Shown here: in pieces, positions 1 through 10,156 of the stretch
Layout of the letters: each line of letters opens with the position of its first letter
How positions within the stretch are numbered: position 1 is the stretch's first letter
Virus record (IMG/VR): IMGVR_UViG_3300029126_000035
Origin: a virus
Taxonomy: Duplodnaviria; Heunggongvirae; Uroviricota; Caudoviricetes
Direction: 5' to 3' (one strand)
DNA: 11,426 nucleotides
Made by a program: the position numbers and the translations under genes
Notes under the pieces: generated by a model
Databases searched by the model: none
The model's input: the letters and a program-made list of their open reading frames with translations, nothing else
Told to the model about the DNA's origin: nothing

Positions 1-12
1 GATGCGCTGAAT

Positions 13-309
13 ATGGCCCGTGCCGAGCAGGGGAAAACGACGCAGCAACACCACTACACAAACGAGAGCAATATGATTTCTCGTATCGTTCTTGGTGGGC
101 TAACTGCTAAGCAGTGGGCGCGGATAAATGGCTATTCTGGCGAACCTCGCGACCATATGAACGCAGAACAGCTTGAGCACCTCTCATATCTCGAAAGCAC
201 CAATATCACGTTAATTGATATGGGCATGGAATATGAGCAGCGCAAAGGAGAACTCACCCGCCTGTCGCAACGCTGGCTCGCCAAGCGTCTGGAGGCGGTC
301 CATGTTTAA
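13..309 (+). CDS. small putative DNA-binding protein with HTH-like segment; true N-terminus may lie upstream of the window or at ATG 73
   Basis: Frame is open from base 1 with ATG at 13 and 73; segment LTAKQWARINGYS fits a helix-turn-helix pattern; stop TAA 307-309 overlaps the next gene start. Confidence 0.5.
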   Translation: MARAEQGKTTQQHHYTNESNMISRIVLGGLTAKQWARINGYSGEPRDHMNAEQLEHLSYLESTNITLIDMGMEYEQRKGELTRLSQRWLAKRLEAVHV

Positions 310-484
310 GCCGACAGGAACACCACAACCTCAAAAACGCTACAAAGATGCCCACGGAGCACTCGTTACTGTCGAAAGCGTGTCTCACAACCGAGTGACG
401 TTTTATCGCGACGGGTATCAATCGCCATGCGTGCAACCGCTGGCACGTTTCATGAAGGAGTTCGTGGAGGTTAACAAATGCTAA
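302..484 (+). CDS. hypothetical small protein (60 aa), translationally coupled to upstream gene
   Basis: ATG 302-304 preceded by GGAGG at 291-295 (6 nt spacer); overlaps upstream stop; the longer ORF from 215 is an in-frame shadow inside the previous gene. Confidence 0.5.
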   Translation: MFKPTGTPQPQKRYKDAHGALVTVESVSHNRVTFYRDGYQSPCVQPLARFMKEFVEVNKC

Positions 485-1100
485 CCGCCCAGAAGAAGAT
501 ATTTTCACTGGCTGGTATGTCGCCAAAATCCGGCAATATGACAGCAAAGTCTGGCATTAATACAGCAGATACAAGCAAAGTTTATCATTTTCTGGTGGTA
601 GGAGCGGATACCTTAACTATGTCAGAAATTACGGTCGATGGTGTTAGCGTTGAGAAGGTCAGCGGCTGCGCCAGAGAATTTCTGGTCGTAGATCACCTGT
701 TCTGCTCGTGTAGTGACTCCACAAAAACATTCGTCCACGCGCGTGACGTTAACGAAATGAGCGCGATGTACTGTGCTTCTGGTTCTTCCAATAGTGAGTT
801 TTCGGAGTCCATAAAAAAGAGCTTGCCGTTATGCGGCAACACGGTTTATGGTTATAAGGCACCTCATAAAACGGGTGCCGGGATTAGGACCCCGCAGGCA
901 ATCGAGGCGATACATGACGCGCCAGCGTCTTTTTTTGTATCGGCGCACACGCACACCTTATCAATGGTGGGCTGTATGGGGCTGACTTCGGTCAGGCTGG
1001 TTTCCTTGATTGCCAGTAGTCCTAACCCTGTACAGTCCACCGCCAGCGAGCTTAGGACCTCCGGCGGTGGCTATAAACCATCAATCAAGGAGGCTGCCAC
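478..1100 (+). other. stop-free frame with strong RBS, coding status unresolved; structured leader region upstream of the small-gene operon
   Basis: ATG 478 preceded by GGAGG 465-469 (7 nt spacer); frame 1 has no stop from 478 to 1506, but beyond 1101 that frame is rich in rare codons (CTA, TTA, ATA, AGG) while the overlapping frame of 1101-1295 has good codon usage; region 850-1070 contains several stems and complementary motifs. Confidence 0.25.
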
Positions 1101-1295
1101 ATGCTGGCTACTACCCCTACCCAAAAACCGCAATTTATCTGGATTATCGCCGCAGTTCGCCGCGATTGCCCGACAATTACCGCCAAAATTCATCATATTG
1201 CTGCCGAGTCTGAACGCGATGCTCGCCGTTCTCTGGTGCGCGATCACGTCTGCTTTTTTGTTGGTCGTATCCGCATGGAGGTGGCACATGATTAA
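1101..1295 (+). CDS. hypothetical small protein (64 aa)
   Basis: Strong RBS AAGGAGG at 1087-1093, 7 nt before ATG 1101; codon usage in this frame is E. coli-like (CTG, CGC, CCG, GCC) and free of rare codons. Confidence 0.7.
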   Translation: MLATTPTQKPQFIWIIAAVRRDCPTITAKIHHIAAESERDARRSLVRDHVCFFVGRIRMEVAHD

Positions 1296-1506
1296 AACCT
1301 ACGATGTGCATATGGACCCCCTCGAACGCACAAGCCAGATCATCACACTGACAGAAGTGATTAATGACATTCTGGTGAGCAGCTCTCCCTCACGAGACGA
1401 AAAACTGAAGGCGTTGCTCGCGATATTGGATCTCGCCGTTCGTGACGTTCATTTCCTGCTGGAAGGTGGCGAAATGCCAGGAAAGACGGGGGCAACCAAT
1501 GAATAA
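1288..1506 (+). CDS. hypothetical small protein (72 aa)
   Basis: ATG 1288 preceded by GGAGG 1277-1281; overlaps upstream stop (1293-1295), indicating translational coupling. Confidence 0.6.
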   Translation: MIKTYDVHMDPLERTSQIITLTEVINDILVSSSPSRDEKLKALLAILDLAVRDVHFLLEGGEMPGKTGATNE

Positions 1507-1693
1507 CTCAATTAATACCCCTCGCCTTACGTCCGCACTTCAATTAATCGAGCAAGCAGCGGCTGTCCTGGTTGCTGTCAGCCTTTCGGCTGAAGAAATG
1601 GACGCTGCTGATGTCGTGGATGCGATTAAAGCGTGCTCATCTTTGGTTAACGATGCCCGTGCAGAGCTGGTAATTCTTGGGGGTGAAAAATGA
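1499..1693 (+). CDS. hypothetical small protein (64 aa)
   Basis: ATG 1499 overlaps upstream stop as ATGAATAA; Ala/Leu-rich helical-looking protein; the ORF-track start at 1442 is an in-frame extension inside the previous gene. Confidence 0.6.
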   Translation: MNNSINTPRLTSALQLIEQAAAVLVAVSLSAEEMDAADVVDAIKACSSLVNDARAELVILGGEK

Positions 1694-1953
1694 ATATCAA
1701 CTTAATTTATCGTCATCCGTGTGAGCTGGAAATTGAATCATTGCTGGGGCGCGAAGAGCCATATCCAGACACATTCACTCCCGCAGATTGCGCGACTGAA
1801 CGGCTTACCAGAGCACGCACAGGTCTGGTTCATGTGATGAATGAGATTGTTCCCTCGGTGGGAGGGGAACAGGCGACAGTAATCAATAGCTGGCTACAAA
1901 AAGTTACCTCCCTGATAGATATCAGTTTAATCGATGTGGAGAGTGCGAAATGA
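1690..1953 (+). CDS. hypothetical small protein (87 aa)
   Basis: ATG 1690 overlaps upstream stop (ATGA); purine-rich GGGGGTGA just upstream. Confidence 0.65.
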   Translation: MNINLIYRHPCELEIESLLGREEPYPDTFTPADCATERLTRARTGLVHVMNEIVPSVGGEQATVINSWLQKVTSLIDISLIDVESAK

Positions 1954-2171
1954 CCAACATCCAGCTCATTGAAGCGCAATGTCGCATCGAACAGGTTCAG
2001 ACTGTTTTAGGGTTCTGGCTTGAAGGGGCCAGCCCCAGCAACAGAGACAAGTTAATGATTGGCGCGGTTATGTCACTGCTCAATGGCGTACCAGAAGCTA
2101 TTCAGGAAGCGGACGAATTGTTGGGCAAATATGAGTTACAGAATCATTCAGGCGAGGCGAAACATGAATAA
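1950..2171 (+). CDS. hypothetical small protein (73 aa)
   Basis: ATG 1950 overlaps upstream stop (ATGA); GAGAG/GTGCGAAA purine-rich region upstream. Confidence 0.65.
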   Translation: MTNIQLIEAQCRIEQVQTVLGFWLEGASPSNRDKLMIGAVMSLLNGVPEAIQEADELLGKYELQNHSGEAKHE

Positions 2172-2766
2172 TTTCTTAACTTTCCATGCAGAAGCAACGC
2201 CTGACGGCGTAAACATCATGTACCGCAGCAACGATGGCATGACAGAACGCGTTGAGACCGTCTCATATATTGATGCCGTAAATCGTCTGGATGCCGGGGA
2301 TTATGACGATAAACCAGATGAAGGCATGTTTATACATCTCGCTATTGCCAGTGGCGGCAACCAGGGATATTTCGATTACACATCACAGCATCACGTGATT
2401 ATGTGGCGCTGGCTGATAGCAACAGCATTCATCAATGAAATGAGAAAGGAAAACGGCACCGTCAGCATTATTGATGACAGTGGCAATCATTCCGTGGTTT
2501 CTGTTTATTCCAATGGCATCGTCGCCATGCCGCTGTATCCAGTAGCAGAGCGCCTCGCTATGGCAAACAACATTGAGGGCGCAATGATCGAGAAATATGG
2601 TGTTGATGTCGGAACAAAGAATGCCATCATTTTTTACAGCAACATGTTCGATGTCGAACAGGGAACACTCACTTCGTTTGGGCGAGAAGTGCTTGCCGAT
2701 CTTCACAACAGCTTTATTGCCGAACTAAACGAAAACGGCATCCCAGAAGCACCAGTGACGCACTAA
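2164..2766 (+). CDS. hypothetical protein (200 aa) immediately upstream of primase
   Basis: ATG 2164 overlaps upstream stop as ATGAATAA; the ORF-track start at 2059 is an in-frame extension inside the previous gene; stop 12 nt before the primase start. Confidence 0.7.
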   Translation: MNNFLTFHAEATPDGVNIMYRSNDGMTERVETVSYIDAVNRLDAGDYDDKPDEGMFIHLAIASGGNQGYFDYTSQHHVIMWRWLIATAFINEMRKENGTVSIIDDSGNHSVVSVYSNGIVAMPLYPVAERLAMANNIEGAMIEKYGVDVGTKNAIIFYSNMFDVEQGTLTSFGREVLADLHNSFIAELNENGIPEAPVTH

Positions 2767-2778
2767 ACGGGGGCCAGA

Positions 2779-5535
2779 ATGCGAAACATTGATCTTATCC
2801 GTCAGGTTATCAGTGCGTCTGAAAACAACTGGCCTCATGTGCTGGGCTGCCTGAACATAAATGTCCCTGACTCTCCGCGCCGTCATGCTCCCTGCCCTGC
2901 ATGTGGGGGCAAAGATCGATTCCGGTTCGATGACAACGGGCGCGGTAGCTTCATCTGTAATCAGTGCGGCGCTGGTGATGGGCTGGATTTAATTAAACGC
3001 GTAAATAACTGCGACACAACAGAGGCGGCGCTTCTTGCCGCTGATGTTCTGGGTATTGATTACCGGACAACGGAAACACCAGAAGCCACCAGCCAGAAAC
3101 GGGAACAACTGGAAACCGAGCGCCAGCGACGCGAACAGGAGCGCCTGAAAAGGGCAGAGAAGGACGAACAACAAAGACGGGATACGTTTTCCCGTCAGTT
3201 TGATGACATGCGCAGAAAGGCTGTAAACGGCAAATCTGATTATCTGGTTGCGAAAGGGGTAGGTGATTTTACATTCCCCGTGTTGCCCGATGGATCTCTG
3301 TTGCTGGCGCTGGTGGATAAATCCGGCGCAGTCACAGCAGCACAGACTATTACCTCACATGGTGAAAAAAGACTCCTGACAGGTTCAGCAAAGCGGGGGG
3401 CATATCACGCCATAAACGCACCAGAAACAACACAGAGCATCTTAATCGCAGAAGGTCTGGCAACGGCATTATCTGCCCATTTAATTCGTCCAGAGGCGCT
3501 GACAGTGGCGGCGATTGATGCCGGGAACCTGTTATATGTCGCCCAGGTACTGCGGGATAAATTTCCTTCAGCACAAATCATCATTGCTGCGGATAACGAC
3601 CACAGCGAAGGAAGACAAAACACGGGGAGAATAGCAGCAGAAAAAGCAGCTTTATCTGTTTCTGGATGGGTGGCATTACCCCCGACAGATCACAAAGCAG
3701 ACTGGAATGATTACCACCAAAAACACGGCATTAAATGCGCCACAGAAGCGTTCAATAAGTCAATGTACCAACCACAGGGTAATGGCGTGAAACAGGAGCC
3801 ACAGACCATTGAGGGAAGCGATTTTAAGGTTATGGATACCGACCCACTGAAACCAAGAATAGAAAGCCGCGAGGATGGTATTTATTGGGTATCTCCGAGA
3901 GCTGACAGCCAGAGTGGAGAAATCATCAATAACGAAAGCTGGTTATGTTCTCCGTTAAGCGTTATCGGTACTGGCAGAGACGATAAAGACCAGTATCTCA
4001 TTCTTCGCTGGCTGTCGTTTGGTTCTGAAACGCCGACAACCGCTGCCATTCCACTGGCTGATATTGGTGAACGTGAAGGATGGCGCACACTTAAAGCTGG
4101 TGGGGTAAATGTCACGACCAAAAGCAGCCTCAGAGCAATACTGGCAGACTGGCTACAACGCAGTGGCTCTCGTGAATTGTGGCGTGTTGCTCATGCCACT
4201 GGCTGGCAATGCGGAGCGTACATCATGCCTGATGGGGAAATCATCGGAACACCTGAAAATCCTGTGCTGTTCAGCGGGAGAAGCTCAGCCGCAGCCGGAT
4301 ATACCGTCTCAGGGAGCGCGAAAAGCTGGCGTGATAACGTGGCGCGTCTGGCCTTTGGTAACTATTCAATGATGACCGGGATCGGCGCAGCACTGGCAGC
4401 GCCATTGATTGGGCTGGTGGGCGCTGACGGGTTCGGCATTCATTTCTATGAGCAGTCGAGCGCAGGTAAGACCACCACGGCAAACGTGGCGAGCAGCTTA
4501 TACGGCAACCCTGATTTACTGCGGCTGACGTGGTACGGAACCGCGCTGGGGCTGGCAAATGAGGCCGCCGCCCACAATGACGGACTAATGCCGCTTGATG
4601 AAGTTGGTCAGGGCGCTGATCCTGTCAGCGTTTCACAGTCTGCCTATGCGTTATTTAACGGTGTAGGGAAACTGCAAGGCGCTAAAGATGGTGGAAACCG
4701 GGATCTAAAACGCTGGCGTACAGTGGCAATCAGCACCGGAGAAATGGATTTAGAAACATTTATCGCTACTTCCGGGCGAAAAACCAAAGCCGGGCAACTG
4801 GTGCGACTGCTGAATATTCCGTTGAGTAAAGCAGTACGCTTTCACGATTACCAGAACGGAAAACAGCACGCAGACGCACTGAAAGACGCTTACCAGCATC
4901 ACCACGGCGCGTCCGGGCGTGAGTGGATTAAATGGCTGGCACACCACCAGCAACAGGCTATTAAAACCGTTCGTGATTGCGAAAGCAGATGGAGAAGCCT
5001 GATCCCATCCGATTATGGTGAGCAGGTTCACCGTGTAGCCGCGCGATTTGCCATTCTGGAGGCAGCATTGCTGTTAGGCGAAGTTGTAACAGGCTGGGAT
5101 GCTCAGACATGCCGTGATGCGATACAGCACAGCTATAACGCATGGTTGCGCGAGTTCGGCACAGGTAACAAAGAACATCAGCAGATTATTGAACAAACGG
5201 AGGCATTTCTTAATGCCTATGGGCTTAGCCGTTTTGCACCATTTCCATACAGCCCGGCAGATTTGCCCATCAAAGATTTAGCCGGATACCGTCAGCGTGG
5301 AGAACATGACGAAAGCCCAATGATTTTCTACACATTCCCGGCCACATTTGAAAAGGAGATCGCATGTGGTTTCAACGCAAAACAGTTTGCTGAAGTGTTG
5401 AAAAAAGCCGGGATGCTAACCCCACCAAACAGCGGTCGTGGATACCAAAGAAAATCACCACGTATTCAGGGACGACAAACAAACGTTTATGTACTCAATT
5501 ACCAGCCAGGAGATTATAACTCATCTGAAGAATGA
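2779..5535 (+). CDS. P4 alpha-type DNA primase-helicase (zinc-ribbon + Toprim primase, P-loop helicase, C-terminal domain)
   Basis: CPAC...CNQC zinc-ribbon pattern (nt 2893-2967); Toprim-like IAEG (E225) and AADNDH (D272/D274, nt 3592-3600); Walker A SSAGKTT (K564 at nt 4468-4470); Walker B-like LMPLDE; 918 aa; iterons immediately downstream. Confidence 0.93.
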   Translation: MRNIDLIRQVISASENNWPHVLGCLNINVPDSPRRHAPCPACGGKDRFRFDDNGRGSFICNQCGAGDGLDLIKRVNNCDTTEAALLAADVLGIDYRTTETPEATSQKREQLETERQRREQERLKRAEKDEQQRRDTFSRQFDDMRRKAVNGKSDYLVAKGVGDFTFPVLPDGSLLLALVDKSGAVTAAQTITSHGEKRLLTGSAKRGAYHAINAPETTQSILIAEGLATALSAHLIRPEALTVAAIDAGNLLYVAQVLRDKFPSAQIIIAADNDHSEGRQNTGRIAAEKAALSVSGWVALPPTDHKADWNDYHQKHGIKCATEAFNKSMYQPQGNGVKQEPQTIEGSDFKVMDTDPLKPRIESREDGIYWVSPRADSQSGEIINNESWLCSPLSVIGTGRDDKDQYLILRWLSFGSETPTTAAIPLADIGEREGWRTLKAGGVNVTTKSSLRAILADWLQRSGSRELWRVAHATGWQCGAYIMPDGEIIGTPENPVLFSGRSSAAAGYTVSGSAKSWRDNVARLAFGNYSMMTGIGAALAAPLIGLVGADGFGIHFYEQSSAGKTTTANVASSLYGNPDLLRLTWYGTALGLANEAAAHNDGLMPLDEVGQGADPVSVSQSAYALFNGVGKLQGAKDGGNRDLKRWRTVAISTGEMDLETFIATSGRKTKAGQLVRLLNIPLSKAVRFHDYQNGKQHADALKDAYQHHHGASGREWIKWLAHHQQQAIKTVRDCESRWRSLIPSDYGEQVHRVAARFAILEAALLLGEVVTGWDAQTCRDAIQHSYNAWLREFGTGNKEHQQIIEQTEAFLNAYGLSRFAPFPYSPADLPIKDLAGYRQRGEHDESPMIFYTFPATFEKEIACGFNAKQFAEVLKKAGMLTPPNSGRGYQRKSPRIQGRQTNVYVLNYQPGDYNSSEE

Positions 5536-5560
5536 GCTTCTTCATGTGCGTAGAAAAGGT

Positions 5561-5672
5561 GTTGGTTCAGTTGGTTCAGTTGGTTCAATTTGCAAAGAGT
5601 ATTGTTTTGTAAGGATTTTATTCTTTTTATTGAACCAACACTGAACCAACAACACGGTATTTTGAACCAACA
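5561..5672. repeat. iteron array, probable replication origin: 3 direct GTTGGTTCA copies, AT-rich spacer, 3 inverted TGAACCAAC copies
   Basis: Perfect 9-mers at 5561-5569, 5570-5578, 5579-5587 and inverted copies at 5631-5639, 5642-5650, 5664-5672; 43-bp AT-rich spacer at 5588-5630; starts 25 bp after the primase stop. Confidence 0.75.
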
Positions 5673-5767
5673 CAATGTGACTGAATTGATGAGCACAACA
5701 TCTGGCTGGCATTAGAGAGTGTTTTACGAAATCTGAACACCACATCACTGGTTTCAGTGGGAGATTG

Positions 5768-6406: not shown

Positions 6407-6580
6407 ATGGCTATTTCAGTAAAGCCAGTATTGATAAGTGAGAAGCAAATGGAAGCGATAAAGAAAATTCAGGAGGAGCAGCGTAAAAAATCAGAGGTAG
6501 GAGTTGCGCCAACGATCCACGAAATTGCTCGGGGATTAATGGATAAGGCGCTGGCTTACACTTTAACTGGACGTGGGTAA
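6407..6580 (+). CDS. small protein (57 aa), possible ribbon-helix-helix DNA-binding protein
   Basis: Not in the ORF track (under 60 aa) but a clean ATG-to-TAA frame with RBS; N-terminal strand-like VKPVLIS followed by two helical segments fits an RHH layout; first gene after the SOS-box promoter. Confidence 0.5.
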   Translation: MAISVKPVLISEKQMEAIKKIQEEQRKKSEVGVAPTIHEIARGLMDKALAYTLTGRG

Positions 6581-6584
6581 ATTT

Positions 6585-8051
6585 ATGGCTACGTGGCAAC
6601 AGGGTATTAATTCTGGTGGTTTTCTGGCTGGCATCGGTACGCAAAATGAGAATGCGCCAAAGGCAAGCGACATTAACGCAACGCTTGGTCTGATCCGCGA
6701 AAACAATGAACTGGCTCGCTCAGGTGCAAATAACGTTGCTCTGACAGGTCTTCGTGGTCTGGCTGGAGTTGCTGATATTTATAAGCAGCAGCAACAGCAG
6801 GAGCGTAAAGCGGCATTCCAGAAAGGTTATGCAGATGCTTATGCGTCCGGTGACAGGGAGCAGATGCGTAATCTTATTACAGCATTCCCAGAAGAGTTTG
6901 AGGAAGTCCGTAAAGGGATGAGTTATGTCGATGATGCTCAAAGGGATGATTATGGCAATCTGGCGCTCAAAGCACAGGTAGCCTCATCGCTTGGTCCGGG
7001 CGCATTTGGCAGGTTCATGATAGATAATGAGCAGGAGATGCGTCGTTTAGGTATCCCTCCAGAAACTATTGCTGAAATGCAGGTTAATGACCCGCAGGGC
7101 TTCCAGCATTTCGCAGGTAATCTGGCGCTGTTTTCTCTCGGTCATGAGAAGTATTTCGATATCAAAGATCAAATGGAAGGTCGGGATATTGAGCGTGGCA
7201 AGTTGGCAGAGACAATCCGCAGCAATCAGGCCAGCGAAGCACTTCAGGCGAGAGGGCAGGATATTAGCCGAGCAAATGCGTTAACGTCAGCATATGCACC
7301 AACAGCAGCAATGCAGAATTACAATCAGTACGCGCAAATGTTAAAGGTGGATCCAGAGGGGGCGGCGGCATTTGCGGCAGCGGCTGGAATTAATACAAAC
7401 GCCAAAAAATTAATGAGTGTTAGAGAAAACGATGATGGCACTGTCACAAAATACTACACAGACGGAAGTGAAGAGCAGGGAAAACTAAACCAGCCAATAT
7501 CTGGAGATGGGTTTCGTCCAATAGCTTTGCCAACAGCCCAAAAGATCATGGAAAAGTCGCCAGAAGGGGCTAAAAAAGCTGCTGGATTTGCATACAGGGT
7601 TAGGGATGCTCTTGATTCAATGGATACACTGAAAGACCAGCTTAGCCCACAGCGAGTGGCGGTCATTAATAATGCTTTGGGTAATGGGACGCTGGCTAAC
7701 TTAACGCTCAGCCCAACAGAGCAGCAATACGTTGTTAATGCTAATGACGCAATAATGGCAATACTCCGTCAGGAAACAGGGGCAGCTATCGTACCTGCTG
7801 AAATGTCAAAATATTATCAAATGTATTTCCCTCAGCCTGGCGACTCCACAAAAACCATTGATACCAAGCGCCGGAAGATGGAAAACCAGTTCAATTCGCT
7901 GAAAGCTGCTTCTGGTCGAGCTTATGATGCTTTGCGGGTTATTTCAGCAGTTGACAGAGGAACTTCTTCTTCGTCGCAGACATTGCCGCAATCTGAGCAG
8001 GTATCACAGCCAGCAGCCAGCAGTAACTTTTCTTCACTATGGGGTGATTAA
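6585..8051 (+). CDS. hypothetical large helical protein (488 aa), Ala/Gln/Glu-rich, unknown function
   Basis: ATG 6585 lies 4 nt after the stop of the small gene (alternative GTG at 6573); polyQ run KQQQQQ; no P-loop or catalytic motif I recognise; stop overlaps the next start (TAATG). Confidence 0.8.
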   Translation: MATWQQGINSGGFLAGIGTQNENAPKASDINATLGLIRENNELARSGANNVALTGLRGLAGVADIYKQQQQQERKAAFQKGYADAYASGDREQMRNLITAFPEEFEEVRKGMSYVDDAQRDDYGNLALKAQVASSLGPGAFGRFMIDNEQEMRRLGIPPETIAEMQVNDPQGFQHFAGNLALFSLGHEKYFDIKDQMEGRDIERGKLAETIRSNQASEALQARGQDISRANALTSAYAPTAAMQNYNQYAQMLKVDPEGAAAFAAAAGINTNAKKLMSVRENDDGTVTKYYTDGSEEQGKLNQPISGDGFRPIALPTAQKIMEKSPEGAKKAAGFAYRVRDALDSMDTLKDQLSPQRVAVINNALGNGTLANLTLSPTEQQYVVNANDAIMAILRQETGAAIVPAEMSKYYQMYFPQPGDSTKTIDTKRRKMENQFNSLKAASGRAYDALRVISAVDRGTSSSSQTLPQSEQVSQPAASSNFSSLWGD

Positions 8052-10156
8052 TGGCTAAAGCATGGAAAGATGTTATCGCCTCTCCACAGTATCAGGCGTT
8101 AGCACCAGAACAAAAAGCGCAGGCTCAGGAGCAATACTTCAATGAAGTCGTTGCCCCGCAAGCCGGAGAAAGTGTAGAGCAGGCTAAGCAGGCTTTTTAT
8201 GCTGCCTATCCACTACCATCAACGAATGAAATAGACCGATACCAATCAGCAACTCAAAATATTCAACATACATCATCTGATAATTCTCTTGCGTCAGGGT
8301 ATGCAAAGTTAGCTACTCAGCAAAGAGAGGGGCTTGAGCGTTCAGCAGAACAGGGAGCCAGTCTTGGGGCTGCGATGCGCGATGCTATAACAGGCGAAAG
8401 CCGAATGACTCCAGAGATGGAGAGACTGCAAAATGTCGACCTTGCCCCAGAGTTAACCTCACTCAGCATGGATGCTCTAAAAGCTCGATGGTCTCAACTT
8501 TTCGGCTCTGACGCATCTCAGGAAAAGATTCTTCAGAGCATGGGAGCGAAATTAAGGCAGGATGAGAAGGGTAACACTATCGTTTCCCTGCCATCCGGTG
8601 ATTATGCTCTGAACAAGCCGGGTTTATCGCCGCAAGACGTGGCATCGTTTCTGGCTAATGCGCTGGCGTTTACACCAGCGGGCAGGGCCGGAACGGTGCT
8701 GGGGGCCATAGGGAAATCAGCAGCTACAGATTTAGCACTACAGGGAGCCACCAGCCTTGCTGGTGGAGAAGATATTGATCCGTTACAAACGGTAATTTCT
8801 GCTGGCATTGGCGGCATTGGTAAGGGGCTGGAGAATACAGCGAGTGCGGTTTCGAGGGCTGTTCGTGGTGATATGGCACCGGAAGCGAAAGCTGCTGTTG
8901 ATTTTGCATCGGAAAGAAACCTGCCGTTAATGACCAGTGACGTACTGAAAGATAAAAACACTGTGCAGAGTCTGGCCCAGAAAACAGGCGAAAAAATCCC
9001 TTTTTTTGGAACGGGTACGAACAGGTTGAATCAACAACAGGCACGGGAAAATCTGGTCAGAACATATAACGATGGTCTGGGAGGCATTTCAGATAAACAG
9101 CTTTATGAATCTGCGACTAAAGGGCAGCAAAAATTCATTGAGGCCGCAGGAAAGCGATATAACCGCATAATTGACGCTATGGGGGATACCCCTGTCGATC
9201 TCTCAAACACGGTAAAAGCTATCGACAATCAGATTGCCGTGTTAAGCCGCCCGGGCAAATCTCAGGATAGAGCCGCGGTAAAAGTCTTGCAGCAATTTAA
9301 AGACGATATCACCAGCGGACCAAATGACCTGCGTCTGGCGAGAGAAAACAGAACTGACCTTCGAAAGCGGTTCATGAATTCAAACGAGACAGTTGATAAA
9401 GACACGCTCCAGAAAGCCAGCGATATTGTCTACAAGGCATATACGCTGGATATGAGAAGGGCAGTAGCCCAGAAACTGGGTTCAGAAGAAGCAGCCAATA
9501 TGGCAAGGGTCGATCGCTCATGGTCTAAATTCAATGACATGATGGGAAGAACGCGCGTTCAGAAGGCAATAGCCAGCGGCAAGGCTACGCCTGAGGATGT
9601 AACAAAACTCGTTTTTAGCCAAAGCTCATCAGAACGTTCTCAGCTTTACAGGCTTCTGGATGACAACGGCAGGCAGAACGCACGGGCAGCCATAATACAG
9701 AATGCTGTAGATAAGGCGACTGATTCGGCGGGGAATATCAGCGTTGAGAAGTTTATTAACACGCTACACCGGAACAGAAAGCAATCCGCAACGTTCTTTA
9801 AGGGCGTGCACGGAAAGGAACTGGACGGCATTATTAAATACCTCAACGATACCAGACAGGCGGCAAAGGTTGACGGTCAGAAATTAAACAGCCAGAAACT
9901 TTATGGCCTGCTGGTTGGTGGAGGCGCTATAAATGCGGCAGTTCTGGCGGGGATGCTGAAAACGGCTGCGTTTGTTGTTCCTGCTGCAGGTGCCGTAGGC
10001 GGAGCAGCGAAGGCATACGAAAGCCCTGTTATACGAAATGCCTTGTTACGTCTGGCAAATACGCCAAAAGGTAGCACAGCATATGACAGAGCGATCAGTA
10101 CGGTCACACAATCACTGACCACAGCAGCACAAGCATCGCAAAAGGAAGCTCAATAA
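8051..10156 (+). CDS. hypothetical large protein (701 aa) with C-terminal Gly/Ala-rich hydrophobic hairpin, unknown function
   Basis: ATG 8051 overlaps upstream stop; Ala/Gln/Lys-rich helical composition; hydrophobic segment LYGLLVGGGAINAAVLAGMLKTAAFVVPAAGAVGGAA at residues ~616-656 (nt 9896-10018); no canonical Walker A. Confidence 0.85.
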   Translation: MAKAWKDVIASPQYQALAPEQKAQAQEQYFNEVVAPQAGESVEQAKQAFYAAYPLPSTNEIDRYQSATQNIQHTSSDNSLASGYAKLATQQREGLERSAEQGASLGAAMRDAITGESRMTPEMERLQNVDLAPELTSLSMDALKARWSQLFGSDASQEKILQSMGAKLRQDEKGNTIVSLPSGDYALNKPGLSPQDVASFLANALAFTPAGRAGTVLGAIGKSAATDLALQGATSLAGGEDIDPLQTVISAGIGGIGKGLENTASAVSRAVRGDMAPEAKAAVDFASERNLPLMTSDVLKDKNTVQSLAQKTGEKIPFFGTGTNRLNQQQARENLVRTYNDGLGGISDKQLYESATKGQQKFIEAAGKRYNRIIDAMGDTPVDLSNTVKAIDNQIAVLSRPGKSQDRAAVKVLQQFKDDITSGPNDLRLARENRTDLRKRFMNSNETVDKDTLQKASDIVYKAYTLDMRRAVAQKLGSEEAANMARVDRSWSKFNDMMGRTRVQKAIASGKATPEDVTKLVFSQSSSERSQLYRLLDDNGRQNARAAIIQNAVDKATDSAGNISVEKFINTLHRNRKQSATFFKGVHGKELDGIIKYLNDTRQAAKVDGQKLNSQKLYGLLVGGGAINAAVLAGMLKTAAFVVPAAGAVGGAAKAYESPVIRNALLRLANTPKGSTAYDRAISTVTQSLTTAAQASQKEAQ

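What the first reader, a model, noticed from the sequence alone, without database searches (positions are those of the whole stretch)
478..1100. Stop-free 600-bp leader with nested complementary motifs: candidate P4-type RNA immunity region
Frame 1 has no stop from 478 to 1506, which is very unlikely by chance, yet beyond 1101 it is full of rare codons while the overlapping gene 1101-1295 has clean codon usage and a strong RBS. So 478-1100 is either a degraded/unusual ORF or a structured leader. It contains TTAGGAC(C) at 884-891 and 1052-1059 flanking its complement GTCCTAA at 1019-1025; GGCAAT at 897-902 complementary to ATTGCC at 1009-1014; an 8-bp GC stem CCACCGCC (1037-1044) / GGCGGTGG (1063-1070) whose loop holds the second TTAGGACC; a CUGAC-UUCG-GUCAG tetraloop hairpin (982-995); and a GGCACC/GGTGCC stem (858-879). 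P4 immunity is known to work through a small CI RNA pairing with complementary sequences upstream and downstream (seqA/seqC); this A-B-C arrangement is reminiscent of that.
Basis: partly seen in the sequence, partly recalled or inferred. Interest (0 to 1): 0.5.

Follow-up and report, generated by a model that had tools for sequence, protein, structure and literature searches.

The report
P4-type RNA immunity cassette in PICI
The region is the antisense-RNA immunity switch of a phage-parasitic island, of the kind known from satellite phage P4, and the puzzling stop-free frame is the P4 "eta"-type ORF that reads straight through the RNA genes.

Summary
Every motif and the stop-free frame are confirmed. 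Rfam places an isrK/seqA-type RNA at 859-935 (63 bits) and a C4/CI antisense RNA at 960-1047 (80 bits). Both sit just upstream of an Icd/Kil-like gene (1101-1295).

The window comes from an EcCIMP1-family PICI inserted at tRNA-Thr in E. coli. The same Rfam models hit seqA and cI in P4 itself.

Across 66 distinct relatives, the two C4 antisense segments co-vary with an upstream target in isrK. They also co-vary with a downstream target that covers the icd Shine-Dalgarno sequence. There are 34 specificity types, and cognate duplexes are about 10 kcal/mol stronger than non-cognate ones.

Frame 1 is not an accident:
- It is open across the RNA block in 68 of 69 relatives; the other two frames never are.
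- Seven different isrK-C4 spacings all preserve the frame.
- Its ATG overlaps the upstream gene's stop codon in 63 of 66 loci.

Unlike in P4, the ORF here reads the icd gene in its +1 frame. That frame is stop-free in 35 of 35 loci of this architecture, but in only 6 of 34 of the P4-like one.

So the region is both a structured RNA region and a translated ORF. It is a new member of a known system with one modest variation. No expression data were available.

The parts
302..484 (+). DUF4222 gene. Its stop codon (TAA 482-484) overlaps the ATG at 478 (ATGCTAA), so ribosomes can pass directly into the long ORF.
   Evidence: Pfam DUF4222, 86 bits. PGAP annotates it in identical islands. The same kind of start/stop overlap with an upstream ORF is seen in 63 of 66 relatives.
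478..1506 (+). Eta-like ORF of 342 codons, annotated as 'Ash family protein'. SD GGAGG lies at 466-470. The ORF reads through the internal promoter, isrK, C4, the seqC leader and the icd gene (in icd's +1 frame). It ends in frame with the 72-codon gene at 1288-1506.
   Evidence: No stop from 478 to 1503. Pfam Phage_ASH matches aa 124-219, which is nt 847-1134, i.e. the RNA block; the same family matches P4 eta but not P4 epsilon. The frame is open in 68/69 relatives and the other frames in 0/69. All spacer lengths are congruent to 2 mod 3. The +1 frame over icd is open in 35/35 loci versus 6/34.
823..852 (+). Inferred constitutive promoter, the equivalent of P4 PLE. -35 is TTGCCG at 823-828, the spacer is 18 nt, -10 is TATGGT at 847-852. 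An A-run lies upstream at 813-818. The predicted start is G859.
   Evidence: The consensus AAAAAGGGCTTGnnG-N17/18-TATGGT, 7 nt before isrK position 1, is conserved in 54 distinct upstream sequences while the spacer varies; P4 has TTGCCT...TATAGT at the same place. It was not picked up by the consensus scan, because it matches only 8/12. Function is inferred.
859..935 (+). isrK / seqA-type RNA. Hairpin 859-878. Hairpin 879-894, whose loop carries target UUAGGAC (884-890). Second target GGCAAUCGAGG (897-907). Intrinsic terminator with stem 916-929 and a T-run at 930-936.
   Evidence: Rfam RF01394, 63 bits against a gathering score of 50. Terminator scan. Helices 97-99% paired with compensatory changes. 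Pairing to C4 is 86.7% versus 62% in shuffles, and 15 of 18 pairs change on both sides.
960..1047 (+). C4 / CI antisense RNA. Basal stem 965-981 with 1026-1042. Hairpin 1 at 982-995 (UUCG loop). Hairpin 2 at 996-1017 with antisense loop UUUCCUUGAUUG (1001-1012). Single-stranded antisense GUCCUAA (1019-1025). CCA at 1043-1045.
   Evidence: Rfam RF01695, 80.2 bits against a gathering score of 45, E = 7.5e-15. MFE -42.4 kcal/mol, z = -4.4. 99.2% of cells paired and 21 pairs with double changes.
1037..1070 (+). seqC hairpin. The stem CCACCGCC/GGCGGUGG presents downstream target 1, UUAGGAC (1052-1058), in its loop. Its 5' arm is shared with the C4 basal stem, so the two structures are alternatives.
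   Evidence: 99.8% paired in 66 relatives, with 4 pairs showing compensatory change. The loop pairs with C4 1019-1025 in 100% of cells, and 6 of 7 pairs co-vary.
1082..1093 (+). Downstream target 2, CAAUCAAGGAGG. It is complementary to the C4 loop at 1001-1012 and contains the Shine-Dalgarno sequence (AAGGAGG 1087-1093) of the icd/kil-like gene.
   Evidence: Helix 86.9% paired, with 8 of 12 pairs changed on both sides. Cognate duplex energy -37.4 versus -27.2 kcal/mol for non-cognate.
1101..1295 (+). Icd / Kil-like gene of 64 aa. It is the first gene that must initiate on its own on transcripts from the internal promoter, and it is the predicted direct target of C4.
   Evidence: NCBIfam phage_ICD_like, 70 bits. 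Clear similarity to the C-terminal 65 aa (Kil) of P4 eta. Best codon usage in the region.
1288..1506 (+). 72-codon gene with its own SD (GGAGG 1277-1281). It overlaps the icd stop and lies in frame 1, so the eta-like ORF ends at its stop. The next gene starts at 1499 (ATGAATAA overlap).
   Evidence: Read from the sequence. PGAP calls it separately where 'ash' is marked as a pseudogene. No family match.

Best explanation
Positions 823-1100 are the immunity switch of an EcCIMP1-family phage-inducible chromosomal island (PICI). It is built like the P4 PLE-seqA-cI-seqC-kil region.

Repressed state:
1. A constitutive promoter inside the long ORF starts transcription at about 859 (inferred).
2. Many transcripts stop at the isrK terminator (916-936). 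This gives a short seqA/IsrK-like RNA.
3. Read-through RNA is processed to a stable C4/CI RNA of about 80 nt, roughly 965-1045. Processing by RNase P is inferred from P1 and P4.
4. C4 exposes two antisense segments, the loop at 1001-1012 and the single strand at 1019-1025. They pair with 1052-1058 and with 1082-1093. The second site is the ribosome-binding site of the icd/kil-like gene. The pairing is shown by sequence and covariation.
5. With icd untranslated, the RNA is exposed and Rho terminates before the replication genes, including the primase at 2779 (inferred from P4 and P1).
6. The same C4 segments also pair with 884-890 and 897-907 in isrK. This is either a second target site, as in P4, or a decoy, as proposed for Gifsy-1.

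Induced state:
1. When the helper phage switches on the upstream alpA operon, transcripts arrive already carrying ribosomes.
2. The ATGCTAA overlap at 478-484 passes ribosomes from the DUF4222 gene into ORF 478-1506.
3. The ORF is translated through the promoter, the terminator, C4, the seqC leader and the icd gene (in icd's +1 frame).
4. Translating ribosomes prevent terminator folding, C4 pairing and Rho loading, so induced transcription ignores immunity. This is the published role of P4 eta.

On this reading, selection keeps the frame open for the act of translation rather than for a folded protein.
For: Identity of the parts:
- Rfam C4 80.2 bits and isrK 63 bits in the window. The same models hit P4 cI and seqA.
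- Icd-like/Kil homologue downstream.
- Window 1-5729 is collinear with EcCIMP1 at 92-99% identity. That PICI is induced by helper phage Kapi1 through alpA (PMC11773190).

Pairing:
- C4-seqA is 86.7% paired and C4-seqC 91.7% paired, against 62-69% in shuffles and 33-45% when the partner is slid.
- Cognate duplexes are -34 and -37 kcal/mol; non-cognate ones are -25 and -27 kcal/mol, over 34 specificity types.
- The downstream target includes the icd SD.

Promoter and terminator:
- Conserved hexamers 7 nt before isrK position 1.
- Terminator at 916-936.

ORF:
- The ash frame is open in 68/69 loci that were chosen through the Icd protein only; the other frames are open in 0/69, and the three minus-strand frames in 13, 0 and 4 of 66.
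- Seven different isrK-C4 spacings are all congruent to 2 mod 3. The single exception is the one broken ORF.
- The start codon overlaps an upstream gene's stop in 63/66 loci.
- The +1 frame over icd is stop-free in 35/35 loci where the ORF uses it. It is stop-free in only 6/34 where it does not, with stops at 11 different positions.
- The N-terminal 123 aa have only close relatives and no domain. pN/pS is 0.47, against 0.16 for the neighbouring gene.

Published mechanism for P4 eta, kil and CI: PMC10111431 section 20. IsrK = seqA and C4 = CI: PMC3632133 and PMC4825925.
Against: - There are no expression, processing or termination data for this element. Promoter activity, RNase P processing, Rho dependence and translation of the ORF are all inferred by homology.
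- The promoter matches the sigma-70 consensus at only 8 of 12 positions, and the generic scan missed it.
- The window lacks the ~39-nt hairpin with a TATAAT loop that 49 of 66 relatives carry between isrK and C4. C4 supply here would therefore depend on terminator read-through.
- Some database variants have the ORF truncated by length changes in the T-run of the terminator or the A-run at 813-818. L091 is also broken. Openness is therefore not absolute, or these may be sequencing errors.
- The loci are phylogenetically related, so counts such as 68/69 overstate the number of independent events.
- In Gifsy-1 the isrK element acts as an activator, not as a repression target (PMC4825925).
Confidence: 0.75

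Rival explanations
1. IsrK-type positive switch, as in Gifsy-1. The short isrK RNA made from 859-935 acts in trans on read-through transcripts. It opens an inhibitory fold and activates translation of the first downstream ORF and the genes coupled to it. The C4-like RNA is a by-product, or is titrated by isrK. This is not exclusive of the main explanation.
For: isrK is hit above its gathering score and keeps its own promoter and terminator. The full leader 859-1110 folds with seqA paired to the C4 antisense segments in cis (-105 kcal/mol, z = -4.5). That resembles the inactive 'structure A' described in PMC4825925. The window variant has no separate element between isrK and C4, as in Gifsy-1.
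Against: The gene downstream here is Kil/Icd-like and sits ahead of replication genes, as in P4, rather than orf45-anrP. The C4 element scores higher than isrK, and its pairing with the icd SD co-varies, which argues for a repressing antisense role. In P4 the same parts give immunity (PMC10111431, PMC3632133).
Confidence: 0.15
2. A purely non-coding leader. Frame 1 is open by chance or by descent, and 'Ash family protein' is an annotation artefact produced by translating conserved RNA genes.
For: The Pfam and PHROG matches of the ORF coincide exactly with the RNA block. Amino acids change freely wherever the RNA specificity loops change. Frame 1 over icd has poor codon usage. The N-terminal part has no distant homologues.
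Against: The frame is open in 68/69 loci against 0/69 for the other frames. Indels are always multiples of three across seven spacer lengths. Start/stop overlap with the upstream gene is present in 63/66 loci. Stop avoidance in the +1 frame of icd occurs only where the ORF uses that frame. Nonsense mutations in P4 eta cause termination (PMC10111431, citing Forti 1999).
Confidence: 0.07
3. An ordinary regulatory protein gene (a Bro-network 'Ash' regulator) whose product acts as a protein. The RNA-like motifs are incidental.
For: PGAP, Pfam and several PHROGs label it as a regulator. The N-terminal 478-858 has island-typical codon usage and pN/pS below 1.
Against: The RNA structure and the intermolecular pairings show strong compensatory change, which protein constraint does not explain. 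The 'conserved domain' is exactly the RNA block. Half of the family reads the C-terminal third in a different frame, so no common protein is conserved. The labels trace back to the old c4/cI 'repressor protein' ORFs, now known to be RNAs (own knowledge: Citron & Schuster 1990; the P4 record still calls the ORF 'cI gene product').
Confidence: 0.03

Closest known systems
Satellite phage P4 immunity region (PLE - seqA - cI RNA - seqC - kil, nested in eta)
   Same: - Same order of parts, and the same Rfam models hit both.
- The promoter lies inside the ORF.
- The long ORF is in the same codon phase relative to C4 and is coupled to the upstream gene.
- Kil and the Icd-like protein are homologous.
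- Replication genes lie downstream.
   Different: - In P4, kil is the in-frame C-terminus of eta. Here the ORF reads the icd/kil gene in its +1 frame and ends with the next gene.
- The N-terminal extension before seqA is 127 codons here and 25 in P4.
- The seqA-cI spacing is 101 nt here and 185 nt in P4.
- The host element is a PICI without psu, sid or delta.
Phage P1/P7 immI region (a1 b1 - c4 - a2 b2 - icd - ant)
   Same: A C4 antisense RNA is cotranscribed with its targets. Two short complementary pairs lie on each side, and the downstream one covers the icd ribosome-binding site (own knowledge of Citron & Schuster 1990).
   Different: No antirepressor gene lies downstream. The AntA/AntB-family gene is upstream, and the controlled genes are replication genes. 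The a1b1 model (RF03163) scores only 14.8 bits here, whereas isrK passes.
Gifsy-1 isrK - orf45 - anrP locus of Salmonella (IsrK and STnc1160)
   Same: An isrK RNA with its own promoter and terminator is followed directly by a C4-like RNA on the read-through transcript, with alternative folds (PMC4825925).
   Different: There, IsrK was shown to activate translation of a 45-codon ORF coupled to an antirepressor, leading to AntQ expression. Here the downstream genes are icd/kil-like and replication genes. Nothing has been tested.
EcCIMP1, the E. coli PICI at tRNA-Thr mobilised by phage Kapi1
   Same: Same insertion site and the same gene order: int, alpA, AntA/B, DUF4222, ash, icd, small genes, primase. 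Identity is 92-99% over window 1-5729 (PMC11773190).
   Different: In the sections I read and searched, the paper mentions an 'Ash family protein', and a search of its text for 'antisense' and 'Icd' found nothing. The late region with the ejection-protein genes differs. The immunity specificity was not compared for MP1 itself; islands with the same AntA/B protein (L006) carry a different type from the window.

Membership tests
C4 antisense RNA / P4 CI RNA (Rfam RF01695) | Covariance-model score at or above the curated gathering score | tested here: met
   80.2 bits against 45, E = 7.5e-15, full-length match to model positions 1-87 at 960-1047.
C4 antisense RNA / P4 CI RNA (Rfam RF01695) | Long basal stem enclosing two hairpins, supported by compensatory changes | tested here: met
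   99.2% of cells paired in 66 relatives. 21 pairs change on both sides, and 0 of 500 shuffles reach this. MFE z = -4.4.
C4 antisense RNA / P4 CI RNA (Rfam RF01695) | Two exposed segments complementary to sites upstream (a1b1/seqA) and downstream (a2b2/seqC) on the same transcript | tested here: met
   Pairings co-vary: covariation score 0.62 and 0.56, against 0.14 and 0.12 in shuffles. Cognate duplexes are about 10 kcal/mol stronger than non-cognate ones.
C4 antisense RNA / P4 CI RNA (Rfam RF01695) | The downstream target overlaps the ribosome-binding site of an icd/kil-type ORF | tested here: met
   1082-1093 contains AAGGAGG, 7 nt before ATG 1101. The gene matches NCBIfam phage_ICD_like at 70 bits.
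C4 antisense RNA / P4 CI RNA (Rfam RF01695) | A stable RNA of about 77-80 nt released from a longer transcript by RNase P, which represses downstream genes | not testable with these tools
   The only hint is the conserved ACCA after the basal stem (1042-1045), which resembles a tRNA end.
isrK / seqA RNA (Rfam RF01394) | Covariance-model score at or above the gathering score, with two 5' hairpins and an intrinsic terminator | tested here: met
   63 bits against 50 at 859-935. Terminator at 916-936. Helices 97-99% paired.
isrK / seqA RNA (Rfam RF01394) | Primary transcript with its own promoter immediately upstream | tested here: inconclusive
   Conserved -35 and -10 hexamers with a variable spacer lie 7 nt before model position 1 in 54 distinct sequences. 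The match to consensus is weak, and there are no transcription start data.
P4 eta-type ORF (Pfam PF10554 Phage_ASH) | An ORF spanning the internal promoter, seqA, cI and seqC in a fixed codon phase, with a Pfam match | tested here: met
   PF10554 scores 54 bits against a cut-off of 26 on aa 124-219. The codon phase relative to C4 is the same as in P4 eta.
P4 eta-type ORF (Pfam PF10554 Phage_ASH) | Start codon coupled to the stop codon of the upstream gene | tested here: met
   ATGCTAA at 478-484, with GGAGG at 466-470. The same pattern is found in 63 of 66 relatives and in P4.
P4 eta-type ORF (Pfam PF10554 Phage_ASH) | kil nested in frame as the C-terminus of eta | tested here: not met
   icd/kil (1101-1295) is in a different frame. 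The ORF reads its +1 frame and ends at 1506. 35 of 69 relatives share this arrangement.
P4 eta-type ORF (Pfam PF10554 Phage_ASH) | Translation of the ORF prevents transcription termination | not testable with these tools
   Support is indirect only: frame-specific stop avoidance and indels in multiples of three.
P4-like satellite (int, alpA, alpha primase, epsilon, psu, delta, sid) | Presence of the capsid-size and helper-control genes psu, delta and sid | tested here: not met
   None is annotated in the complete island or found in the window's ORFs. The late zone carries P22-type ejection-protein genes instead.
EcCIMP1-family Gram-negative PICI | Integrase at tRNA-Thr next to proA, alpA, Bro zone, primase, and collinearity with EcCIMP1 | tested here: met
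   Context in identical islands. Window 1-5729 aligns to EcCIMP1 at 92-99% identity.
P1-type immI operon (c4-icd-ant) | An antirepressor gene translationally coupled downstream of icd | tested here: not met
   Downstream are five small ORFs and the primase. The AntA/AntB-family gene is upstream.

The most novel reading that the evidence does not exclude
The 'Ash/Eta' ORF may be selected only for being translated, not for its protein. Evolution keeps some frame open from the upstream gene's stop codon through a promoter, a terminator, an antisense-RNA gene and, in half of the family, the whole kil/icd gene in its +1 frame. A single-base change in the SD-ATG spacer switches between the two layouts. 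Ribosomes would then act as a mobile shield that makes helper-induced transcription blind to RNA immunity. On this view Pfam PF10554 and several PHROG 'regulator' families are protein families whose conservation is imposed by RNA genes.
Probability: 0.5. Interest if true: 0.5.

Novelty: new member of a known kind. Interest (0 to 1): 0.35.

Why it matters
- It gives a concrete, testable regulatory model for a very common E. coli island. Islands covering at least 80% of window 1-2400 occur in 479 of 5426 complete genomes. Its experimentally studied relative, EcCIMP1, has been described with an 'Ash family protein', with no RNA switch mentioned in what I read.
- It exposes inconsistent annotation. 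PGAP either swallows the Icd-like gene into a 342-aa 'ash' protein or marks 'ash' as a pseudogene, and it never annotates the RNAs.
- The many co-varying specificity types among near-identical islands suggest that immunity classes matter for competition between islands.
- The frame-specific stop avoidance is comparative evidence for the P4 idea that translation itself is the anti-termination signal.

Tried and rejected
- The literature search for P4 eta/kil/timm returned noise. The original Forti 1999 paper is not held, so the mechanism is cited through PMC10111431 and my own recall.
- Minus-strand ORFs across the region have no meaningful family matches. They match only two tiny PHROGs of unknown function, probably antisense calls on the RNA block. 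Their frames are not conserved. Rejected.
- A homologue search with the N-terminal 123 aa found only close 'ash' ORFs from Escherichia and Salmonella and no domain. I therefore dropped the idea of an independent N-terminal protein domain.
- The sigma-70 scan proposed only a weak site at 650-679. It is not conserved in position in relatives, so it was not used.
- The Rfam MIR8562 hit at 5560-5651 (23.7 bits against a gathering score of 211) is noise. It is caused by the iteron repeats.
- A P1-type immI reading was rejected because no antirepressor gene lies downstream.
- Membership in P4-like satellites in the strict sense was rejected because psu, sid and delta are absent.
Full report
**Observation.** Frame 1 is free of stops from the ATG at 478 to the TAA at 1504-1506. 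Frames 2 and 3 carry 15 and 22 stops over the same span. Composition gives P of about 8e-8 for 342 open codons, and none of 20000 shuffles of 478-1100 stayed open. The codon-usage remark also holds (codon table from memory). Across 1102-1287, frame 1 uses 14% rare codons, whereas the overlapping 1101-1295 frame uses none and has AAGGAGG 7 nt before its ATG.

**What the pieces are.** A scan of both strands against Rfam gives two hits above the curated thresholds. The first is isrK (RF01394) at 859-935 with 63 bits. The second is the C4 antisense RNA (RF01695) at 960-1047 with 80.2 bits and E = 7.5e-15.
- 858-879 is isrK hairpin 1.
- TTAGGAC at 884-890 sits in the loop of isrK hairpin 2.
- The CUGAC-UUCG-GUCAG hairpin is C4 hairpin 1.
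- ATTGCC lies at the 3' edge of the C4 hairpin-2 loop.
- GTCCTAA at 1019-1025 is the single-stranded joint of C4.

The gene at 1101-1295 matches NCBIfam 'host cell division inhibitor Icd-like'. Pfam Phage_ASH matches residues 124-219 of the long ORF, which is nt 847-1134. The 'Ash domain' is therefore the translation of the RNA block itself. Several PHROG 'transcriptional regulator/repressor' families behave the same way.

**Context.** The same 2.4 kb occurs at 98-99% identity in many E. coli chromosomes; 479 of 5426 complete genomes hold at least 80% of it. In a complete copy the element sits at tRNA-Thr next to proA. Its gene order is integrase, small HTH (AlpA-type), hypothetical, AntA/AntB-family, DUF4222, 'ash family protein', small ORFs, primase, P22-type ejection proteins, PerC. 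Window 1-5729 is collinear with EcCIMP1 at 92-99% identity. EcCIMP1 is a PICI of E. coli MP1 that is mobilised by phage Kapi1 and controlled by alpA (PMC11773190).

**Comparison with P4.** In the P4 genome the same two Rfam models hit the known seqA and cI positions. A single ORF at 8168-8812 on the minus strand spans both. Its MMM start matches the published 197-199-aa eta, and it overlaps the stop of the upstream alpA-type gene. Its last 65 residues (Kil) are plainly homologous to the window's Icd-like protein. Pfam Phage_ASH matches this eta ORF and not epsilon. Published text states that IsrK and C4 are the structural homologues of seqA and CI (PMC3632133, PMC4825925). It also states that both profiles hit Gram-negative PICIs, that a constitutive promoter lies inside eta, that CI/seqA interactions terminate its transcript, and that eta translated from an upstream late promoter, coupled to the alpA homologue, prevents termination (PMC10111431, section 20).

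**Comparative tests of the RNA model.** I collected 99 loci through the Icd-like protein alone: 19 species genomes and 80 viral contigs. This selection does not depend on the upstream frame. With the E. coli variants and P4, this gave 69 distinct loci, 66 of them with isrK. All carry C4 about 54 nt before icd.

On an alignment of the 66 (A2), the results were:

| Structure tested | Cells paired | Notes |
|---|---|---|
| Internal isrK and C4 helices | 99.2% | 21 pairs changed on both sides |
| C4-seqA pairing | 86.7% | shuffles 62%, slid registers 33-45%; 15 of 18 pairs changed on both sides |
| C4-seqC pairing | 91.7% | shuffles 69%; 14 of 19 pairs changed on both sides |

In both the seqA and the seqC pairing, the 7-bp UUAGGAC/GUCCUAA helix is paired in 100% of cells. 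The GC stem shares its 5' arm with the C4 basal stem, so the two folds are alternatives.

There are 34 distinct C4 antisense segments. Cognate duplex energies average -33.9 kcal/mol (seqA) and -37.4 kcal/mol (seqC). Non-cognate partners average -24.7 and -27.2 kcal/mol. Among E. coli islands that are otherwise 93-98% identical, at least five specificity types occur, and all three sites change together. Folded alone, C4 has z = -4.4. The whole leader 859-1110 has z = -4.5, with seqA paired to the C4 antisense segments in cis.

**Comparative tests of the ORF.**
- Taking the codon phase relative to C4 position 1, the 'ash' frame is open from upstream of isrK to the icd ATG in 68 of 69 distinct loci. 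The other two plus-strand frames are never open. The minus-strand frames are open in 13, 0 and 4 of 66.
- The isrK-to-C4 distance takes seven values (98, 101, 125, 128, 131, 140 and 185 nt), all congruent to 2 mod 3. The single exception, at 139 nt, is the one locus with a broken ORF.
- In 63 of 66 loci the ORF's start codon overlaps the stop codon of an upstream ORF of at least 45 codons (ATGA, ATGnnTAA, ATGCTAA or TAATG). It usually has a GGAGG-like SD. The N-terminal extension before isrK varies from 25 to 144 codons.

The loci fall into two architectures. In 34 of them, including P4, icd is in frame with the ORF. In 35, including the window, the ORF runs in the +1 frame of icd and usually ends at the stop of the next gene. 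One extra base between SD and ATG separates the two layouts. The +1 frame across icd is stop-free in 35 of 35 loci of the second kind. It is stop-free in only 6 of 34 of the first kind, where stops sit at 11 different positions. The +2 frame has more than two stops on average in both kinds.

In the window, the N-terminal part 485-792 shows a weak coding signature. Variable sites by codon position are 21, 8 and 23, and pN/pS is 0.47, against 0.16 for DUF4222. It has island-typical codon usage. It has only close relatives and no domain.

**Promoter and terminator.** Immediately upstream of isrK, 54 distinct sequences share AAAAAGGGCTTGnnG, then a variable 17-18 nt, then TATGGT, which ends 7 nt before model position 1. 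P4 has TTGCCT...TATAGT at the same place. In the window this gives a -35 at 823-828 and a -10 at 847-852. The generic scan missed it because it matches only 8 of 12 positions. The same scan did find the isrK terminator at 916-929 plus the T-run.

**Interpretation.** The region is both a structured RNA region and a translated ORF. What is shown here:
- the identity of the RNA elements;
- their pairing scheme, including occlusion of the icd SD;
- conservation of the reading frame and of its coupling to the upstream gene.

What is inferred from P4, P1 and Gifsy-1:
- promoter activity;
- RNase P processing;
- Rho-dependent termination when icd is not translated;
- shielding by ribosomes on helper-induced transcripts.

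The role of isrK remains open: it could be a second target, as in P4, or a decoy or activator, as in Gifsy-1.

**Caveats.** There are no expression data. The loci are related by descent. A few database ORFs are truncated by length changes in the terminator T-run or the A-run at 813-818. The window also lacks the ~39-nt element that most relatives have between isrK and C4.

**Novelty.** The system is known from P4, P1/P7 and Gifsy-1. Its presence in Gram-negative PICIs has been noted in general terms. For the EcCIMP1 family, what I read of the literature mentions only an 'Ash family protein'. I rate this as a new member of a known kind. Its one modest variation is that the eta-type ORF crosses kil/icd out of frame, with frame-specific stop avoidance.

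Noticed in passing
window 5559-5590 and 5629-5673: Three tandem copies of GTTGGTTCA(G/A)T at 9-nt spacing, followed by three inverted copies (TGAACCAAC), lie just downstream of the primase stop. This is likely the island's replication origin. A similar segment occurs in inverted orientation upstream of perC in EcCIMP1. The weak Rfam MIR8562 hit here is an artefact of these repeats.
   Followed up: partly
window 6573-10156: P22-type DNA ejection genes sit in the late zone of a PICI: Pfam Inj_translocase (gp20-like) at 6573-8051, followed by a 701-aa ORF. They are about 87% identical to Salmonella P22-like phages. This module differs from the one in EcCIMP1.
   Followed up: partly
L006-L009, L011 and most other loci, between the isrK terminator and C4 (alignment A2 columns ~160-200); absent from window 937-959: 49 of 66 relatives carry an extra ~39 nt that forms a co-varying hairpin with TATAAT in its loop. 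It could be a second promoter for C4 or a processing signal. The window type and a few others lack it. The length difference is a multiple of three.
   Followed up: partly
window 884-907, 1001-1025, 1051-1093, compared with L005, L006, L008 and L031: At least five immunity specificity types exist among E. coli islands that are otherwise 93-98% identical. The changes at all three sites are coordinated. In L005 there is also a compensated double change in C4 hairpin 1. This suggests frequent exchange of, or selection for, new immunity classes.
   Followed up: partly
L010 (P4) 8168-8812 and 7888-8175: Pfam PF10554 (Phage_ASH) matches P4 eta (the old 'cI' ORF), not epsilon, which is PF25738. A published P4-like satellite detection scheme lists PF10554 as its epsilon marker (PMC8628076). 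That component may therefore really report the immunity-RNA region.
   Followed up: partly
window 478-1506; L003, L004, L007, L110: PGAP treats identical or near-identical sequence in two ways. It either calls a 342-355-aa 'ash family protein' that swallows the Icd-like gene, or it calls a pseudogene 'ash' fragment plus a separate Icd-like gene. No ncRNA feature is annotated in any of them.
   Followed up: yes
window 302-2766: Every gene junction from the AntA/B gene to the gene before the primase has overlapping start and stop codons (302/309, 478/484, 1288/1295, 1499/1506, 1690/1693, 1950/1953, 2164/2171). This makes one long chain of translational coupling.
   Followed up: partly
proteins P0001, P0006, P0007, P0010, P0016; locus L091: Some database variants have the long ORF cut short by one-base length changes in the terminator T-run (window 930-936) or the A-run (813-818). 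These could be real frameshift variants or homopolymer sequencing errors.
   Followed up: no
L001, L002 (Stx phages), locus positions 3000-3889: In Stx2 phages the same isrK-C4 block (about 90% identical to window 860-1122) precedes a Rha-family gene. The Ash frame runs in frame into Rha: one annotated 261-aa ORF carries Phage_ASH followed by Phage_pRha.
   Followed up: partly
window 823-839: A perfect 6-bp hairpin, TTGCCG-TTATG-CGGCAA, overlaps the predicted -35 and spacer. The scan reported it as a minus-strand terminator-like site. Some relatives have a different palindrome at the same place. Its meaning is unknown.
   Followed up: no
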